A stretch of 64,000 nt of DNA from an uncultured virus (IMG/VR IMGVR_UViG_3300009161_006655) (lineage: Duplodnaviria > Heunggongvirae > Uroviricota > Caudoviricetes), in IMG/VR virus record IMGVR_UViG_3300009161_006655; one strand, given 5' to 3'. The position numbers and the translations under genes were made by a program. Below, in pieces: positions 1,560 to 44,452 of this stretch. The notes beneath the pieces are model-generated. The model was not told the origin of the DNA and searched no databases. It saw only the letters and a list, made by a program, of their open reading frames with translations. How positions within the stretch are numbered: the stretch's first letter is position 1; each line of letters starts with the position of its first letter.

Positions 1560-1979
1560 ATGAAAAAACTTAAAAGATTTAACGAACTTCTTAGTGAAGT
1601 ACCACACCAAGTTAGTGGAGATACAATGCAGGCATCTGGTTCAGATGTTAATTTTGAAAATGATAGTGTTATAAAATTTGAAGAGTTTGCTGAACATCGT
1701 TTAGATGGTGCGACTACAATTTCTAATAATGCAAAAGAAAAAGGAGGAGATGCTCTTTTAACACATCATCATTTTGTGGTTAAACTTCCTTTTTATGAAG
1801 AAGCTACTGATGGTAAATTTAATCCTACAAGAGCTCAAGCTCACTTTGAAGATTTAATGGATGAACTTATTGATAAAACATCTAATGGTATCAATTTAGA
1901 ACAAATTGAATTTCAAGAATTGGTTGGTAAGATAGAAGCTTTAGGTGAGCTTTTAATTAAATCAAGAGATTTAAAATAA
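1560..1979 (+). CDS. hypothetical protein with capsid-targeting-like N-terminus (MKKLKRFNE)
   Basis: N-terminal motif; TTAATATATA at 1546-1555. Confidence 0.7.
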   Translation: MKKLKRFNELLSEVPHQVSGDTMQASGSDVNFENDSVIKFEEFAEHRLDGATTISNNAKEKGGDALLTHHHFVVKLPFYEEATDGKFNPTRAQAHFEDLMDELIDKTSNGINLEQIEFQELVGKIEALGELLIKSRDLK

Positions 1980-2015
1980 AAAAGACCCAGCTAAAAGCTG
2001 AGTCTATATTATAAA

Positions 2016-2870
2016 ACGCTGAGATTACACGTTCATTTGACAGGTCTTTGGTTAGATTATGATTTCCCAAACTTATCCACCACCTTTTGAGTGATATCCT
2101 ATCAGTACCGGTTAGTTAGACTAACCACTTCTTGAGTTACTAAATACTCTCCATTTAATCCACTTACTCAGCCTTGCGAGCTAACACGAGGTTCGATCCT
2201 CTATAAGTTTTTCGATGAAATCACATCAGCCTTTCGAGCTTCAGTGGCCAAGAACAACTCTTGACTAAGTAGGTACCTTTCATCAGTAACTAGGTAACAC
2301 TTTCGATTTGTTTTTAGTTTTTGAATCTACTTTCAAATTTTAGTGCTTGTAGATTTATGTCGAAGTAGTGGTCACCTCTCAGCTCCCAAAGCTTTTGGCC
2401 TCAAGAATACTGGACTACTCCGTGTGATGCCTCCATCACAACTTTTTAAGATATCTTCACCACGACTCGCCTTGCGACTAATCTACACTCTTGGTAGAGT
2501 GATTGATGTTCATTAACAGCACCGCCTGTACAATGAATTGTCTTTCGACTTTGAGACACCTATCAAGTTGAAACTCACGATTGTAATAACTGGTTGGTCA
2601 CCACTTCTCGTAAAATCTCTACAGGTTATTCTTATTGGTCTTCCGACCTCAACTGAACAATCTACACTTGCCCAGTCACCAATCCATTTCCCTACGGAGT
2701 TACCCTCGGTACTTCAGGCTTAGTGATATCCTGCTTGCTTACTCGACCTCGGTTACCCAAGACGCAAACACATTTTGCAATTGTGTTCACTTTATCCCTC
2801 TTTCAAGGTTTATTTTACGACCATAAGCGGCCGTTACTTCCATCTATCCTAAGATAGGTTTCCGTATGTA
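2016..2870 (-). ncRNA. large structured ncRNA, GOLLD-like (ends approximate)
   Basis: About 850 nt, GC-enriched, no credible ORF; many minus-strand GNRA hairpins (gtc-GAAA-gac, ggtc-GGAA-gacc, cttgg-GTAA-ccgag, gtc-GCAA-ggc); downstream of co-oriented tRNAs. Confidence 0.65.
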
Positions 2871-3034
2871 ATTTTTTCAAAGAACTTACTTTATATCCGA
2901 CGTTTCGGAAAAAGTTTAGAAAAACTTTCATTTTTCTTTTTATTTTTTCTACCTCTCACACCTAACACTCACTCAAAGTGGTTTGTGTATAACAACCTTA
3001 ACATCACTATCTTATAGTCGAGTAGGTAAATTTG

Positions 3035-3106
3035 TAGCGGGGGAAGGATTCGAACCTCCGACCTCTAGGTTATGAGCCTAGCGAGCTACCCCTGCTCTAC
3101 CCCGCA
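3035..3106 (-). tRNA. tRNA-Met(CAT), initiator-like
   Basis: Cloverleaf TGCGGGG...CTAGG-CTCATAA-CCTAG...GGTTCGAATCC; 1:72 mismatch as in fMet tRNA; no encoded CCA. Confidence 0.9.
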
Positions 3107-3121
3107 ATATATCTTTTTTTG

Positions 3122-3222
3122 TAGCCCGTAGAGGATTCGAACACTCTGTTTTCTAACCGAAAAGTTAGACGTCCTAAACAGATAAATCTGTTTCTCTTGC
3201 GAGTCCAGTAGACGAACGGGCC
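3122..3222 (-). tRNA. atypical Glu-type tRNA: 8-nt anticodon loop (CTTTTCGG), ~28-nt D-loop insertion
   Basis: Acceptor GGCCCGT/ACGGGCT, D stem GTCT/GGAC, anticodon stem TCTAA/TTAGA, TTCGAAT T-loop with a bulged T-stem. Confidence 0.7.
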
Positions 3223-3227
3223 ATTTG

Positions 3228-3300
3228 TAGTTGGTAGAGGATTCGAACCTCTGTTTGATTTCTGAAAAGAAACCCGTCCTATCCAGTAGACGAACCGACC
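3228..3300 (-). tRNA. atypical Glu-type tRNA with 8-nt anticodon loop (CTTTTCAG)
   Basis: GGTCGGT..GTCT-ACTGGATA-GGAC G GGTTT-CTTTTCAG-AAATC AAAC AGAGG-TTCGAAT-CCTCT ACCAACT A. Confidence 0.75.
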
Positions 3301-3318
3301 ATTTTATTTTTCTTCTTA

Positions 3319-3350
3319 CAAAGATAAGTAAACTTTTTTAATCTACCAAA
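3319..3350 (-). promoter_or_regulatory. Bacteroidota primary-sigma promoter for the tRNA/ncRNA cluster
   Basis: TTTG-N20-TATCTTTG matches the -33 TTTG / -7 TAnnTTTG consensus. Confidence 0.75.
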
Positions 3351-3408
3351 TCTTTTTTTATTTTTTTTTAGATTTGTATCTGAATCGTTATCTATCTCTT
3401 TTGTCTTA

Positions 3409-3440
3409 CAAAGATAATATATCTTTTTTAATCTACCAAA
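3409..3440 (-). promoter_or_regulatory. second, tandem copy of the Bacteroidota-type promoter
   Basis: Near-identical direct repeat TTTGGTAGATTAAAAAAG...TATCTTTG. Confidence 0.7.
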
Positions 3441-3612
3441 TTATTTTTTCAATTTTTTTATTTCTTTCTTCATCAATTGGATAAAATAATTCTTTTGTAT
3501 ACCAATAGTTTCTTAACTCATTATCGAATATTTTAAAGCCGATTGAATCGGTATCAGTAACAACATATGACTTATCAATAATTTCCTGATTGTTATTATG
3601 TCTTTGATCATA
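3433..3612 (-). pseudogene. start-less gene remnant ending in ERNKKIEKIIW
   Basis: Open frame with the shared C-terminal motif; nearest ATG is out of frame. Confidence 0.4.
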
Positions 3613-19567: not shown

Positions 19568-21472
19568 ATGAAAATTTTTAAATTAATAAGCAGCATTGCG
19601 TTGCTTTTGGCGGTATCACTACCGGCTTTTTCACAAACGGCCCCACCAGCACCATCGTCTGGAATCTGGGCAATTATCGATACTAACTACACAGTTGGTA
19701 CAAGTACACTAAATGTTACTAAAGCAAGACTTACTCTTCAGAACACAACAACTAACAAAACAACCGGTGTTCAGTTTAGAGTATTTTATGACAAAGTAGC
19801 ATTCTCTTCTGCGTCAGTCGCTTTAGTAGGATCATCAACAAACCTTTATCTACAATCAGTAGATAACAACACAAATGGTTATGTTACTATTACACTTGTT
19901 TACACAGGTTCAAGTAATACCTACTCATTAGCAAATGGTGAGACATTTGAAATTACCTTTGGACACGTTACGTCTACGGTCTTTCAAGCGTTAACATCAA
20001 TCACAGCATTGTCTTGGTCAGGTGCTTATCCTTACTCACAAGTTGCCGCTGAGCAACCAGGTAACGATATCGCTTTATCATTACATAGTTATGGAGGTAT
20101 TTTTTACTTACCTCACTTACAGTACCATGGTACATTTACAAACGTAACTGGATCGGGTGCTAAAAACTTAACTTTGGCTTTACAGAAAAAACCTAAAACA
20201 GGTTCTACTTGGTCACAAGTTAATACTTACACAACAAACATCAACGGTAAATTTTCTTTCAATGAGATATTAGACACAACTTACTTTGATGTAAGATTAG
20301 CGGTTCAAGGTGATACGATGGGTGTAGGTAACGTAATTTCTGTTGCCGATGCACAACAAATCAACCAGTGGACAATCGGTGGTGCTACACCAGCTGGTTG
20401 GGACTTTTATCACGCAGATGTAAATGGTGACAATAGTGTTTCTATATCAGATGCTTATGGTGTATTTGGTAGAATCGCTGGTCGTTTCGCAGTTTGGCCA
20501 AACTCAGTTAAAGATGTTAAATTCTTTACAGCTTCAGAGTATACAACTGTAGTAGGATCACCAACAACAAATATGACCGGTACAATTACTGGTAATACAA
20601 ACTTTACATTTAATATCTTACCAGGTCAACCTGATTCGGTAACATTCTATGTAATGGTACCTGGAGATGCTAATAGCACTGGTTATCATATGGCTCGTTT
20701 AACACCAATTGAAATATTGAATCCAACAAATGCTCCTAATCACTTAATTGACGAAGCAGTTGAATATGATTTCGTTGCTCCAACAATCGAGATAAACGTT
20801 CCTAGTCTAACTGTAGATGAGGGTAACTTAGTAAAACTTCCTGTTAAAGTATTCACAGGTAGTAATAAAATAGGCGCTTTACAATTAGCTCTTAAATTTG
20901 ATGGAGAATTATTAGAATTCAAACAAGTTCTAAATAGTGCGAAAGCAATGAACTGGATGTCTTTTGTTAATTCAATGGATTCAGTTATTGAATGGGGTGG
21001 ATATGATAGAACTAATGGTGAGAATTTATTCATCGATGGTGAAACAGTATTCACATTAACATTCTTAGCTAAAAAACCACAAGGTGAGTGGGCACAATCA
21101 CCATTATACACAACAAGAAAATTTGTTGGAGCTGAAGACGCTGGTGATATGAATTGTATTCCCACAAACGGTCTTTACCAGGTTAAAATGGTTAGAGGTA
21201 TAACATTAAAAGAAAGTGAAATTCTAGTTTACCCTAATCCAACAACAGGTGAAGTTACAATTAAGTTTAACGTTCCAGTAGATGGAAATGTTAGTCTATC
21301 ATTTGTTGATGTTAATGGTAGAGTAGTAACAAATATATTAAACGAGTATATGCCAAGTGGTAACTATACTTACAGAGCTAGTTTAAGTGGTTTCGCACCA
21401 GGTAGTTATTATACAACAATGACATCAAGTACTGCGATTTCGGTTAACAAAACGATTTTAATTAATCAATAA
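19568..21472 (+). CDS. T9SS type A cargo with cohesin-like and dockerin-like domains
   Basis: Signal peptide; two cohesin-like sandwiches; DVNGDNSVSISD EF-hand; C-terminal VYPNP...G.Y...K CTD. Confidence 0.8.
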   Translation: MKIFKLISSIALLLAVSLPAFSQTAPPAPSSGIWAIIDTNYTVGTSTLNVTKARLTLQNTTTNKTTGVQFRVFYDKVAFSSASVALVGSSTNLYLQSVDNNTNGYVTITLVYTGSSNTYSLANGETFEITFGHVTSTVFQALTSITALSWSGAYPYSQVAAEQPGNDIALSLHSYGGIFYLPHLQYHGTFTNVTGSGAKNLTLALQKKPKTGSTWSQVNTYTTNINGKFSFNEILDTTYFDVRLAVQGDTMGVGNVISVADAQQINQWTIGGATPAGWDFYHADVNGDNSVSISDAYGVFGRIAGRFAVWPNSVKDVKFFTASEYTTVVGSPTTNMTGTITGNTNFTFNILPGQPDSVTFYVMVPGDANSTGYHMARLTPIEILNPTNAPNHLIDEAVEYDFVAPTIEINVPSLTVDEGNLVKLPVKVFTGSNKIGALQLALKFDGELLEFKQVLNSAKAMNWMSFVNSMDSVIEWGGYDRTNGENLFIDGETVFTLTFLAKKPQGEWAQSPLYTTRKFVGAEDAGDMNCIPTNGLYQVKMVRGITLKESEILVYPNPTTGEVTIKFNVPVDGNVSLSFVDVNGRVVTNILNEYMPSGNYTYRASLSGFAPGSYYTTMTSSTAISVNKTILINQ

Positions 21473-43527: not shown

Positions 43528-44364
43528 TTATACTAATTCTTCAACTTCTTTTTCTGTTGTTAGTAACTCCCAAGCTCTTGCCATTCTAGTTAATCCAATT
43601 CCTCCACCAAATCTTGGGAAGAAATTATAAGATAAGAATAGTTCTAATTCAGACTCAACTCTTTCTTTACCGAATAGTTCAAATAACTTAGCAGCATATT
43701 TACCATTTTCGATTGTATAGAAATTATGTTTCATTTCTTCTACATCACAGCTTCTTTCTGCTGATCCAATTGTTTCTTGACCATAAAGAATAACATCTAC
43801 TTTATTAAAGATGTTAGTTTCATTGTGTTTCATATTCCAAAAAGGATTAGTTCTTAATGGGAAATTTTGTAAAGAAACTACAGATCCTTTTTCTTTCCAC
43901 ATTCTACTTTCGTGTTCATCTTCTAAGATTTCAACACCACCATATTCTTGACAAACTTCATCGTAGTTTACTTCTACTGGTGAATCAAAACCTAAATGTG
44001 CTAATAGTTCAGATTCTAGTTTAAGTAATTCTTTCATTCCACCTTTTGATTCGAATTCAAACATAGGGAAGATTAATTCGTGTCTTCCAGGAATAGGATT
44101 TTTTTCTTGACGATAAGATGTTGAAATACAAAAACATCCTTCCCAATGAGGATTCTTTAATAGTTCGTGTTCTAACCACATTTGTCCTGTTTGGGGAAGA
44201 GGCCAAATTTCACCGTTGTAGTTAAAAGTGGCAATTGAGTGAGGGTTTTCACAAGCTGCTAAGATTGACAGTCTTGATTGTGTCGGTACTTCGTAGAAGT
44301 TTTTTGACAAAAAAAATTCTCTCATTTTTTGAACGAGAGAGTTGTACGCTAAAGTGTTATTCAT
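43528..44364 (-). CDS. class II aaRS catalytic-domain paralogue (AsnRS-related asparagine synthetase type)
   Basis: LPQTGQMWLE, STSYRQE..RH..F.MFEFE, ETIGSAER, RFGGGIGLTR; no anticodon-binding domain. Confidence 0.8.
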   Translation of the reverse strand: MNNTLAYNSLVQKMREFFLSKNFYEVPTQSRLSILAACENPHSIATFNYNGEIWPLPQTGQMWLEHELLKNPHWEGCFCISTSYRQEKNPIPGRHELIFPMFEFESKGGMKELLKLESELLAHLGFDSPVEVNYDEVCQEYGGVEILEDEHESRMWKEKGSVVSLQNFPLRTNPFWNMKHNETNIFNKVDVILYGQETIGSAERSCDVEEMKHNFYTIENGKYAAKLFELFGKERVESELELFLSYNFFPRFGGGIGLTRMARAWELLTTEKEVEELV

Positions 44365-44452
44365 AGGATTTTTTTTTTGAGCCAAGAAATGAATCCTGAC
44401 CCTAATTTAATTATATATCATGAAACGTGTCTTTTGTTTAGCGAAAAATGAA

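What the first reader, a model, noticed from the sequence alone, without database searches (positions are those of the whole stretch)
3122..3300. Two tandem Glu-type tRNAs both have 8-nt anticodon loops (UUUC)
The loops read CUUUUCGG and CUUUUCAG, one base longer than normal (alternatively a 6-bp stem with a 6-nt loop). Their anticodon stems differ completely (TCTAA/TTAGA vs GGTTT/AAATC) yet both still pair, which suggests selection rather than decay. Expanded loops are classic +1 frameshift suppressors (here GAAA). They could instead be anticodon-nuclease decoys or non-ribosomal Glu donors. They are the first RNAs after tandem consensus promoters.
Basis: partly seen in the sequence, partly recalled or inferred. 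Interest (0 to 1): 0.75.

Follow-up and report, generated by a model that had tools for sequence, protein, structure and literature searches.

The report
Phage tRNA-Glu mimics beside GOLLD RNA
Two glutamate-tRNA look-alikes with a remodelled, one-base-longer anticodon arm open a giant freshwater phage's operon for an initiator-like tRNA and the cage-forming GOLLD RNA, and they most likely imitate a tRNA instead of reading codons.

Summary
On the minus strand, 3300-3228 (A) and 3222-3122 (B) are two tRNA-Glu-type genes with loops CUUUUCAG and CUUUUCGG behind two Bacteroidota-type promoters. B carries a 27-nt two-hairpin insert in its D loop and a bulged U in its T stem. The pair is followed by a tRNA-Met and a GOLLD RNA (Rfam, 269 bits). 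The window is a relative of 634-642 kb uncultured phages.

The design is conserved and is not an assembly error. I collected 79 distinct family sequences from phage and metagenome DNA. The anticodon stems covary, and the first and last loop bases form a Watson-Crick pair in 69 of 79 (C:G, U:A, G:C, A:U). The arm is therefore better read as a 6-bp stem closing a hexaloop UUUUCR. Half of the members (39 of 79) carry D-loop inserts of up to about 155 nt. A related phage has four ordinary tRNA-Glu genes as well.

In the window GAA-A is not avoided (310 of 918 GAA codons) and no gene needs a +1 shift. My best reading (0.5) is non-decoding tRNA-Glu mimics that are cut out of the GOLLD operon transcript. 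A frameshift suppressor like SufJ remains possible (about 0.12).

Earlier notes of this scan describe similar tRNA mimics beside GOLLD on other DNA.

The parts
3409..3440 (-). Distal Bacteroidota-type promoter (TTTG, spacer, TAnnTTTG)
   Evidence: Pattern match (13 matches against 4.6 expected in the window). It is nearly identical to the proximal copy. The consensus itself is recalled knowledge.
3319..3350 (-). Proximal Bacteroidota-type promoter, about 10-19 nt upstream of tRNA-like A
   Evidence: The same promoter-to-tRNA-like layout is seen in relatives L001, L010 and L170.
3228..3300 (-). tRNA-Glu-like A, 73 nt. The body is clean. The anticodon arm is GGUUU-C-UUUUCA-G-AAAUC. There is a C-A mismatch at acceptor pair 4:69, G1.U72 and A73, and no encoded CCA.
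   Evidence: ARAGORN, Rfam 38.1 bits, parse, fold.
3262..3269 (-). 8-nt loop of A (CUUUUCAG), read either as a C:G closing pair plus the hexaloop UUUUCA or as a true 8-nt loop
3122..3222 (-). tRNA-Glu-like B, 101 nt. The acceptor stem pairs 7 of 7. The anticodon arm is UCUAA-C-UUUUCG-G-UUAGA.
   Evidence: Parse and fold. It is missed by ARAGORN and Rfam. An identical arm occurs in L010, L620, L643 and L674.
3177..3203 (-). 27-nt insert in the D loop of B. It forms a 3-bp hairpin with a GCAA tetraloop followed by a 7-bp hairpin.
   Evidence: Comparison with A and RNAfold. In relatives the first hairpin changes CUC/GAG to CCC/GGG with a GUAA loop, and the second hairpin changes on both sides or grows to about 86 nt.
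3157..3164 (-). 8-nt loop of B (CUUUUCGG)
3143..3143 (-). Bulged U in the 5' strand of B's T stem (AGAG-U-G against CCUCU)
   Evidence: Sequence. A bulge is scored in 26 of 79 family sequences.
3034..3106 (-). tRNA-Met (CAT) with a normal 7-nt loop, a U1/U72 mismatch and A11-U24 (initiator-like)
   Evidence: ARAGORN, Rfam 64.7 bits, fold
2016..2900 (-). GOLLD RNA. The 3' domain is 2422..2016 by Rfam. The 5' domain extends to about 2857-2912 by RNA contigs.
   Evidence: RF02032, 268.9 bits, E 2.7e-76. RNA contigs of three studies cover 2018 to 2845-2912.
1973..2005 (-). Intrinsic terminator of the operon
   Evidence: 10-bp stem followed by a T run

Best explanation
A and B are tRNA-Glu-derived mimics that do not read codons. 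They are the first two RNAs of a phage non-coding operon: two promoters, A, B, an initiator-like tRNA-Met, GOLLD RNA, then a terminator.

Shown:
- They keep the tRNA-Glu body. This includes the acceptor stem, the GUCU/GGAC D stem, G18-G19, the 4-nt variable loop and the UUCGAAU T loop.
- The anticodon arm has been rebuilt with one extra base, so that a Watson-Crick pair closes a conserved hexaloop U-U-U-U-C-R that still holds UUC.
- Half of the family also carries hairpin inserts at D-loop position 20.

Inferred:
- The operon transcript is cut by RNase P and RNase Z at these tRNA shapes, which frees tRNA-Met and helps to define GOLLD's ends. In relatives a family member starts 9-15 nt after GOLLD's 3' end.
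- In two relatives that post-GOLLD member has shrunk to an acceptor/T-arm minihelix, which is the minimal substrate shape of those enzymes.
- The released mimics stay off the ribosome and act through the conserved hexaloop and tRNA-Glu core. They would serve as a ligand or decoy for something that reads tRNA-Glu (GluRS, or a host anticodon nuclease or modification enzyme), or as a partner of the GOLLD cage. Which of these applies is not shown.
For: - Operon anatomy.
- Same family and layout in relatives of the 634-642 kb phages.
- Selection on the arm: 93.9% of cells pair against 63.9% in shuffles (0 of 500), and the closing pair is CG 21, GC 1, UA 1 with none unpaired.
- In all fetched DNA there are 79 distinct members. 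The closing pair is Watson-Crick in 69 of 79. The hexaloop is UUUUCG in 49, UUUUCA in 24 and UAUUCR in 6. Position 32 is U and position 37 is R in 79 of 79, so U32 can pair with R37.
- RNAfold closes the arm to 7 bp plus a UUUC tetraloop.
- Features not expected in a decoding tRNA: a D-loop insert of 10 nt or more in 39 of 79 members (up to about 155 nt), and a T-stem bulge in 26 of 79.
- Not needed for decoding: LR745206 has 58 ARAGORN tRNAs, including 4 canonical tRNA-Glu with 7-nt loops, and its mimics sit only in the GOLLD locus.
- GOLLD link: GOLLD lies within 1.5 kb in 6 contigs of the first viral scan, plus L001, L002 and the window. It lies within the fetched flank in 16 of 40 metagenome loci, and in 12 of the 19 loci of 2.5 kb or more.
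- A tRNA gene starting 9-23 nt after GOLLD's end is general (25 of 70 GOLLD loci by ARAGORN; Met, Phe, Ser, Leu, Trp). Only the high-scoring huge-phage clade has the Glu mimic there.
- Minihelix remnants occur in L147 and L176.
- A tRNA-Tyr-like RNA in relatives has the same arm design, G-UUGUAA-C.
- GOLLD is transcribed: RNA contigs of 3 studies, one of which ends at 2018 next to adapter sequence.
- No support for frameshifting.
Against: - No direct data on processing, CCA addition, charging or ribosome binding.
- A has a clean body, and only its arm differs from a working tRNA.
- The anticodon UUC, R37 and mostly U33 are exactly what a decoding tRNA keeps.
- An insertion at 31.5 is what makes tRNA-SufJ a +1 frameshifter that still binds the A site well.
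- Family members also occur in ordinary phage tRNA arrays without GOLLD nearby. One carries an encoded CCA like its neighbours (L014, L018), which looks like a working tRNA gene.
- 10 of 79 closing positions are not Watson-Crick.
- The scans that fixed C..G inflate the C:G count.
- In the window GOLLD ends at a terminator and not at a mimic, so the 3'-end processing role does not apply to this copy.
Confidence: 0.5

Rival explanations
1. They are working tRNA-Glu variants that read GAA/GAG as triplets. The extra closing pair alters the loop so that a host anticodon nuclease or other tRNA-directed defence no longer recognises them, and they keep phage translation going.
For: - UUC, R37 and the tRNA-Glu core are conserved.
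- Clean members sit in ordinary phage tRNA arrays, one with an encoded CCA like its neighbours.
- Phage tRNAs are proposed to evade tRNA-targeting defences through anticodon-loop changes (PMC10264068; abstract seen).
- tRNA-SufJ with C31.5 pairs normally with a triplet in the A site.
Against: - 39 of 79 members have D-loop inserts and 26 of 79 have T-stem bulges.
- B in the window has both.
- The arm is predicted to close to a tetraloop.
- The related phage has four canonical tRNA-Glu genes.
- PMC10264068 does not mention insertions or Glu.
- No tRNA-Glu nuclease of these hosts is known to me.
Confidence: 0.2
2. They are natural +1 frameshift suppressors of the SufJ type. UUC pairs with GAA in the A site, and the extra base at 31.5 makes the ribosome move four bases (GAA-N).
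For: - The arm has exactly the SufJ geometry, with one base inserted 5' of position 32 and a strengthened 31.5:38 interaction.
- The design is conserved across many phages.
- The genes have strong promoters.
Against: - GAA is 5.2% of codons, and 310 of 918 GAA codons are followed by A (expected 337, z -1.9), about 5 per gene, so there is no avoidance.
- All 15 ORF pairs in +1 relation are ordinary start/stop overlaps, each second ORF having its own start codon (one at the window's edge only 42 codons in), and only one overlap holds GAAA.
- The ornate members are unlikely to pass through a ribosome.
- The Watson-Crick closing pair and the U32-R37 pairing favour a closed loop.
- Only 64 kb of a genome of probably several hundred kb could be examined.
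Confidence: 0.12
3. They are charged with glutamate but kept off the ribosome, and they donate Glu to a non-ribosomal reaction. The model is the special tRNAs used for cell-wall or tetrapyrrole chemistry.
For: - The tRNA-Glu features that I recall as GluRS identity elements (U11-A24, U13.G22, 4-nt variable loop, U34 U35 C36 A37) are invariant or nearly so, even in ornate members.
- The closed loop, inserts and bulges would keep them out of translation.
- A class-II synthetase-like catalytic core without an anticodon-binding domain is encoded at 43528-44385.
Against: - No Glu-tRNA-using enzyme (GluTR, LanB-type dehydratase or the like) was seen in the window.
- Half of the members have G37 and not A37.
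- The link to GOLLD is not explained.
- The identity elements are recalled for E. coli and were not tested for these hosts.
Confidence: 0.1
4. They are decaying tRNA pseudogenes, or the extra U is an assembly error.
For: A has one acceptor mismatch. Some relatives have weak anticodon stems or a degenerate arm (L037, L003a, L013b).
Against: - Stems covary strongly.
- The loop is conserved in 79 distinct sequences from many samples.
- An independent DNA contig has the same loops.
- The genes sit behind consensus promoters.
Confidence: 0.02

Closest known systems
tRNA-SufJ (Salmonella +1 frameshift suppressor derived from tRNA-Thr; PMC4238358, passages read)
   Same: One base is inserted on the 5' side of the anticodon loop (C31.5), giving an 8-membered loop. 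The inserted C takes over the 32-38 interaction.
   Different: SufJ is a laboratory suppressor mutant with C31.5 opposite A38. Here the partner is Watson-Crick (C:G, U:A, G:C, A:U) and covaries. The family is natural, widespread in phages, often ornate, and no suppressible gene was found.
tRNAs beside or inside GOLLD RNA (RF02032; PMC12286853 and PMC12990946, passages read)
   Same: GOLLD lies in phage tRNA islands. GOLLD env-38 lies downstream of a Met-tRNA, as in this window. Some GOLLD RNAs carry a tRNA in the linker.
   Different: Those texts describe ordinary tRNAs near GOLLD or a tRNA in linker J13/15. They do not describe a dedicated family of Glu-type mimics with a rebuilt anticodon arm and D-loop hairpins flanking GOLLD.
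Canonical phage and Bacteroidota-type tRNA-Glu(UUC)
   Same: They share the acceptor type (G1.U72, A73), D arm, variable loop and T loop. The canonical loops are UUUUCAU, UUUUCAA and CUUUCAC (87 of the matches in 119 loci), so the hexaloop equals positions 32-37 of the canonical loop.
   Different: The arm has one extra base and a closing pair. Inserts and bulges are present. The 87 canonical genes were not tabulated for CCA: some in other viral contigs encode it (e.g. L082, L106, L109), whereas the four of LR745206 do not, nor do these mimics or their phage neighbours.
tRNA-like processing signals such as mascRNA at the 3' end of MALAT1, and tRNA punctuation of mitochondrial transcripts (recalled, not read here)
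   Same: A tRNA shape next to a long stable non-coding RNA would let RNase P or RNase Z make that RNA's end. In relatives the mimic starts 9-15 nt after GOLLD.
   Different: Cleavage is not shown here. A pure processing signal would not need the conserved hexaloop.
Phage tRNAs with anticodon-loop changes that evade host tRNA-targeting defences (PMC10264068; abstract seen, term search)
   Same: These are phage-borne tRNA genes whose loop departs from the host's.
   Different: That work concerns substitutions in 7-nt loops. Searches of its text for insertion, eight and Glu gave no hit.

Membership tests
Canonical elongator tRNA-Glu (Rfam RF00005 tRNA) | Cloverleaf with a 7-bp acceptor stem, D arm with G18-G19, 5-bp T stem and UUCGAAU-type T loop | tested here: met
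   A meets all of these, except for one C-A mismatch in the acceptor stem. B has the cloverleaf but also a 27-nt D-loop insert and a T-stem bulge.
Canonical elongator tRNA-Glu (Rfam RF00005 tRNA) | 5-bp anticodon stem with a 7-nt loop (U33, anticodon 34-36, purine 37) | tested here: not met
   Both have 18 nt in the arm where 17 is normal. The arm reads as 5 bp + 8 nt or as 6 bp + 6 nt.
Canonical elongator tRNA-Glu (Rfam RF00005 tRNA) | Score at or above the Rfam gathering cut-off (29 bits) | tested here: inconclusive
   A scores 38.1 bits and passes. B is not reported at all, even at E up to 1.
Canonical elongator tRNA-Glu (Rfam RF00005 tRNA) | Aminoacylation with Glu, CCA end, use on the ribosome | not testable with these tools
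   No tRNA-seq data. RNA contigs do not inform on small structured RNAs.
+1 frameshift suppressor tRNAs (SufJ, SufA6, SufD type) | An extra nucleotide in the anticodon loop of an otherwise functional tRNA | tested here: inconclusive
   The extra base is present at 31.5. The body of A is plausible, but the body of B is not. The closing bases pair.
+1 frameshift suppressor tRNAs (SufJ, SufA6, SufD type) | Genes or sites that need, or suffer from, a +1 shift at the cognate codon | tested here: not met
   No candidate among 15 ORF pairs in +1 relation. GAA-A is not avoided (310 of 918). Only the 64-kb window was examined.
GOLLD-associated tRNA genes | Same-strand tRNA or tRNA-like gene within the GOLLD transcription unit | tested here: met
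   The order promoters, A, B, tRNA-Met, GOLLD, terminator lies on one strand with no terminator in between. The layout is the same in L010.
GOLLD-associated tRNA genes | tRNA gene starting within about 25 nt of GOLLD's 3' end | tested here: not met
   In the window GOLLD is followed by a terminator. The feature is met in relatives L001, L002, L150, L160, L169 and L170.
tRNA-like processing signals (RNase P/Z substrates next to a long RNA) | Cleavage at the 5' and 3' ends of the tRNA-like fold | not testable with these tools
   There are only hints. The acceptor/T-arm minihelix is kept where the rest is lost (L147, L176). One low-depth RNA contig spans 3389-3220 and ends 2 nt inside B. Contigs cannot prove ends.

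The most novel reading that the evidence does not exclude
The Glu-type mimics are dedicated working partners of the GOLLD nanocage, together with the Tyr-type mimic seen in relatives. In this reading a giant phage makes a cage RNA plus a set of disarmed tRNA look-alikes from one operon. The look-alikes are the cage's cargo or adaptors, for instance to capture host tRNA-binding proteins (GluRS, TyrRS, anticodon nucleases) or to dock on ribosomes. The GNRA-capped D-loop hairpins would serve as docking handles.
Probability: 0.2. Interest if true: 0.85.

Novelty: new variant of a known kind. Interest (0 to 1): 0.62.

Why it matters
GOLLD is one of the largest bacterial or phage RNAs of unknown function, and it was recently shown to build a 14-mer cage (PMC12286853). 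Its neighbourhood of tRNAs has been noted but not explained.

This locus shows that one clade of giant freshwater phages has replaced the ordinary neighbouring tRNAs by a selected family of tRNA-Glu mimics. The anticodon arm of these mimics is rebuilt in one fixed way, and the elbow carries hairpins.

That gives concrete, testable reagents. One can co-transcribe GOLLD with its mimics, test RNase P processing, GluRS binding and cage loading, and test directly whether a natural 31.5-type loop shifts the reading frame.

If the frameshift reading were right instead, this would be a widespread natural family of +1 frameshifting (four-base-reading) tRNAs.

Tried and rejected
1. Whole-genome searches: no genome is held for the window. 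Canonical tRNA-Glu genes and frameshifted genes could therefore be sought only in the 64-kb window and in relative LR745206.

2. Kissing between the hexaloop and GOLLD: a GAAAA segment about 195 nt before GOLLD's end could pair with UUUUC. The base opposite position 37 does not covary, since CGAAAA, UGAAAA and AGAAAA occur regardless of A37 or G37. The UAUUCA variant has no complement in its GOLLD. The idea is unsupported but not excluded.

3. RNA evidence for the mimics: RNA contigs of runs X15 and X16 do not cover 3122-3300. X17 has one contig of depth 5 (3220-3389). Such libraries under-represent tRNAs and contigs show no ends, so this says nothing either way.

Only one is tRNA-like (L341, a Pirellulaceae MAG). 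The rest are chance matches, mostly in GC-rich DNA. This is not quantitative.

5. A viral scan with a wrongly computed gap found nothing relevant. It was repeated correctly.

6. My first full-length finder had a faulty pattern. It was fixed.

7. Literature: searches found no description of Glu-type phage tRNAs with 8-nt or closed loops, nor of tRNA mimics flanking GOLLD. Weinberg 2009 (PMC4140389) and Morgado 2020 (PMC7549688) are not held, so they may say more on GOLLD-adjacent tRNAs than I could see.

8. The sigma-70 promoter scan is uninformative for this host type (6 sites against 5.5 expected).

Full report
**What is there**

All features lie on the minus strand. Reading 5' to 3', the order is:
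- two nearly identical promoters of the Bacteroidota type (TTTG, spacer, TAnnTTTG) at 3440..3409 and 3350..3319. This pattern occurs 13 times in the window against 4.6 expected, and 0 of 100 shuffles reach 13. The consensus is recalled knowledge.
- tRNA-like A, 3300..3228
- a 5-nt spacer
- tRNA-like B, 3222..3122
- tRNA-Met(CAT), 3106..3034
- about 120-175 nt of conserved spacer
- GOLLD RNA. The Rfam RF02032 match is at 2422..2016, 268.9 bits, E 2.7e-76.
- an intrinsic terminator at 2005..1983 followed by a T run.

ARAGORN reports A as 'tRNA-???' and misses B. The Rfam tRNA model gives A 38.1 bits (cut-off 29) and misses B.

**Anatomy of A and B**

Both have the tRNA-Glu body:
- acceptor stem with G1.U72 and A73
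- U8-C9
- D stem GUCU/GGAC
- G18-G19
- 4-nt variable loop AAAC
- T loop UUCGAAU
- no encoded CCA. The neighbouring tRNA-Met lacks it too, as do all 58 tRNAs of the related phage.

A is 73 nt and clean, apart from a C-A mismatch at pair 4:69. Relatives have G at that 3' position.

B is 101 nt. It has 27 extra nucleotides in the D loop after G19 (3203..3177). These fold into a 3-bp hairpin with a GCAA tetraloop and a 7-bp hairpin. B also has a bulged U in the 5' strand of the T stem (3143).

RNAfold gives cloverleaves for both: A at -19.6 kcal/mol (z -1.7) and B at -30.7 kcal/mol (z -2.2).

**Not an artefact**

The 8-mer alone is at chance level in the window (5 matches against 4.3 expected). 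Three results rule out an error:
- A DNA contig from another study (run X9, 3061-3500) shows no indel in either loop. It differs only by 3207 A>T and a 1-nt deletion at 3114.
- Relatives at 75-81% identity carry the same loops.
- A pattern scan of viral contigs gave 19 loci, of which 16 are tRNA-Glu-like and 3 are chance hits in GC-rich coding DNA.

**What organism**

- The 1.6 kb around the finding matches uncultured phage records LR745206.1 (634,780 bp; 61% of the query at 80.7%) and LR756502.1 (642,428 bp; 55% at 75.2%).
- Other relatives lie on viral contigs of 150-483 kb.
- The window is about 30% G+C.
- It encodes a protein with a type-IX-secretion sorting domain (Por_Secre_tail, 19568-21472), a GH108 lysozyme-like protein, purA, rpiB and sugar-modifying enzymes.
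- The runs that hold the stretch are freshwater and lake metagenomes.

I read it as part of a giant phage of a freshwater Bacteroidota host. The host inference rests on the promoter type and the sorting domain, both of which are recalled associations.

**The arm is selected, and how it is best read**

I aligned the 3' halves of 26 family sequences (A1). On that alignment:
- The six proposed pairs of the arm form standard pairs in 91.9% of cells.
- All eight pairs counted pair in 93.9% of cells, against 63.9% in shuffles. None of 500 shuffles reaches this, and slid controls give 26-47%.
- Every one of the five stem pairs has changes on both sides.
- The first and last bases of the '8-nt loop' are C:G in 21, G:C in 1 and U:A in 1. 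They are never unpaired.

Scans that left these two bases free added more members. Over everything fetched I count 79 distinct full-length members:
- The closing bases are Watson-Crick in 69 (C:G 54, U:A 11, G:C 2, A:U 2), G.U in 4 and unpaired in 6.
- The C:G count is inflated because two scans required C..G.
- The six bases inside are UUUUCG in 49, UUUUCA in 24 and UAUUCR in 6.
- The first is always U and the last always a purine, so they too can pair. RNAfold indeed closes the arm to 7 bp with a UUUC tetraloop.

The hexaloop therefore equals positions 32-37 of the canonical loop. The novelty is one inserted base at 31.5 that pairs with position 38.

**Ornamentation**

- 39 of 79 members have D-loop inserts of 10 nt or more (up to about 155 nt), and 26 of 79 are scored with a T-stem bulge.
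- In B-type relatives the first insert hairpin changes CUC/GAG to CCC/GGG while keeping a GNRA loop.
- The second hairpin changes on both sides, or grows to about 86 nt in L010.
- I know of no decoding tRNA with such inserts at the elbow.

**Context in relatives**

- L010 has the window's layout exactly, and its A-equivalent has a G:C closing pair.
- In L001, L002, L150, L160, L169 and L170 a family member starts 9-15 nt after GOLLD's 3' end. It is often followed by a conserved spacer of about 85 nt and a second, ornate member.
- In L147 and L176 the first post-GOLLD member is reduced to an acceptor stem plus one T-arm-like hairpin. The second member has a 7-nt loop CUUUUCA.
- L037 has a degenerate arm.
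- An independent scan for GOLLD gave 91 loci, of which 70 had a GOLLD 3' domain by my HMM. In 25 of the 70, an ARAGORN tRNA starts 9-23 nt after GOLLD (Met, Phe, Ser, Leu, Trp, or the Glu mimic). The Glu mimic occurs only in the highest-scoring clade.
- A tRNA directly after GOLLD is therefore general, and the Glu mimic is this clade's version.
- In metagenome loci GOLLD lies within the fetched flank in 16 of 40, and in 12 of the 19 loci of 2.5 kb or more.
- Family members also occur without GOLLD nearby, in ordinary phage tRNA arrays (L003, L013, L014, L018, L019). L018 has an encoded CCA like its neighbours.

**Is it needed for decoding?**

- LR745206 has 61 Rfam tRNA matches and 58 ARAGORN genes.
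- These include three tRNA-Glu(UUC) and one tRNA-Glu(CUC) with normal 7-nt loops at 365267-365818.
- Its three mimics lie only in the GOLLD locus.

**Frameshift test in the window**

- In 65 ORFs (17,613 codons) GAA is used 918 times and is followed by A 310 times (33.8%). The expectation from the overall first-base frequency is 337 (z -1.9), and other NNA codons are followed by A in 38.9% of cases. That is about five GAA-A sites per gene, which is no real avoidance.
- All 15 ORF pairs in +1 relation are short start/stop overlaps, and each second ORF has its own start codon (within 0-13 codons in 14 pairs; 42 codons in for the pair cut by the window's edge). Only one overlap holds an in-frame GAAA.
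- An efficient GAAA reader would hit nearly every protein. A weak one cannot be excluded.

**Transcription**

- RNA contigs from three studies cover 2018 to 2845-2912, at contig depths of hundreds to thousands.
- One contig ends at 2018 next to adapter sequence, matching GOLLD's modelled 3' end.
- What the same runs show over the mimic region is uninformative and is given under tried and rejected.

**Comparison with what is known**

- The passages read from the cryo-EM paper and a review say that GOLLD lies near tRNA islands, that env-38 lies downstream of a Met-tRNA, and that some GOLLDs hold a tRNA in the linker.
- tRNA-SufJ shows that a C31.5 insertion gives a +1 frameshifter that still binds the A site with a triplet pairing. 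This is the closest structural analogue.
- I recall, without having read it here, that a yeast mitochondrial tRNA-Thr with an 8-nt loop reads triplets.
- Six literature searches found no description of this family.
- Two likely relevant papers are not held.
- Earlier notes of this scan on other DNA describe a tRNA-Phe mimic with an elbow hairpin and a closed anticodon loop beside GOLLD, and similar cases. They agree with my reading but are not independent evidence.

**Verdict**

The most likely reading is a selected family of non-decoding tRNA-Glu mimics belonging to the GOLLD operon of giant freshwater phages.

Processing by tRNA enzymes is inferred. An off-ribosome role through the conserved hexaloop and tRNA-Glu core is proposed.

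Decoding readings (a nuclease-evading triplet reader, or a SufJ-like +1 shifter) remain possible, mainly for the clean copy A.

Noticed in passing
window 2016-2900 (-): A full GOLLD RNA. The Rfam 3' domain is 2422..2016. RNA contigs from three lake or freshwater metatranscriptome studies cover 2018 to 2845-2912 at high contig depth, and one contig ends at 2018 next to adapter sequence.
   Followed up: partly
window 3034-3106 (-): The tRNA-Met has an unpaired U1/U72 and A11-U24, which are two of the three classic bacterial initiator features as I recall them. It has only two G-C pairs at the foot of the anticodon stem. The same U1/U72 occurs in L001 and L020.
   Followed up: partly
window 2913-3033 (-): The roughly 100 nt after tRNA-Met are conserved with relative L160 and look like a long hairpin. 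In L160 and L150 extra promoters sit between tRNA-Met and GOLLD. A motif GUUCUUUGA near 2886..2878 is conserved at the start of GOLLD's 5' domain.
   Followed up: no
L001 1307-1394; also L147, L150, L169, L176: Relatives carry a class-II, tRNA-Tyr-like RNA upstream of the operon. Its anticodon arm has the same design, a closing pair plus a hexaloop holding GUA: G-UUGUAA-C, or G-UAGUAA-C in L150. L150's Glu mimic shows the same U-to-A change at the second loop base. This RNA is not present in the window.
   Followed up: partly
L001 2857-2940; L150, L160, L169, L170 after the first post-GOLLD mimic: A conserved spacer of about 85 nt lies between the two post-GOLLD mimics. It begins with a hairpin whose loop again holds UUUUCG and continues with a GGGUCUGUC...GACAG hairpin. 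It is not in the window.
   Followed up: no
L147 and L176, directly after GOLLD: The first post-GOLLD mimic is reduced to an acceptor stem plus one hairpin with a 5-bp stem and a 7-nt loop (a minihelix).
   Followed up: partly
window 43528-44385 (-): A 285-aa class-II aminoacyl-tRNA-synthetase catalytic core (Pfam tRNA-synt_2, E 1.6e-12) without an anticodon-binding domain. It has weak likeness to AspRS/AsnRS, EpmA and AsnA, far below their cut-offs.
   Followed up: partly
LR745206.1 343293-343558, 388398-388484, 407961-408042: The related phage has Lys, Asn and Gln tRNAs with long variable arms (82-87 nt), which is unusual for these identities. It also has a tRNA with an odd loop at 407364-407437.
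   Followed up: no
window 3100-3343 and 3316-3369: DNA run X9 shows a low-depth joint that skips 3101-3342, which would be a variant without both mimics. It shows another joint that goes back 54 nt in the promoter repeat. Both are weak (one contig each).
   Followed up: no
window 19568-21472 (+): A phage ORF with a type-IX-secretion C-terminal sorting domain (Por_Secre_tail, E 3.3e-10).
   Followed up: no
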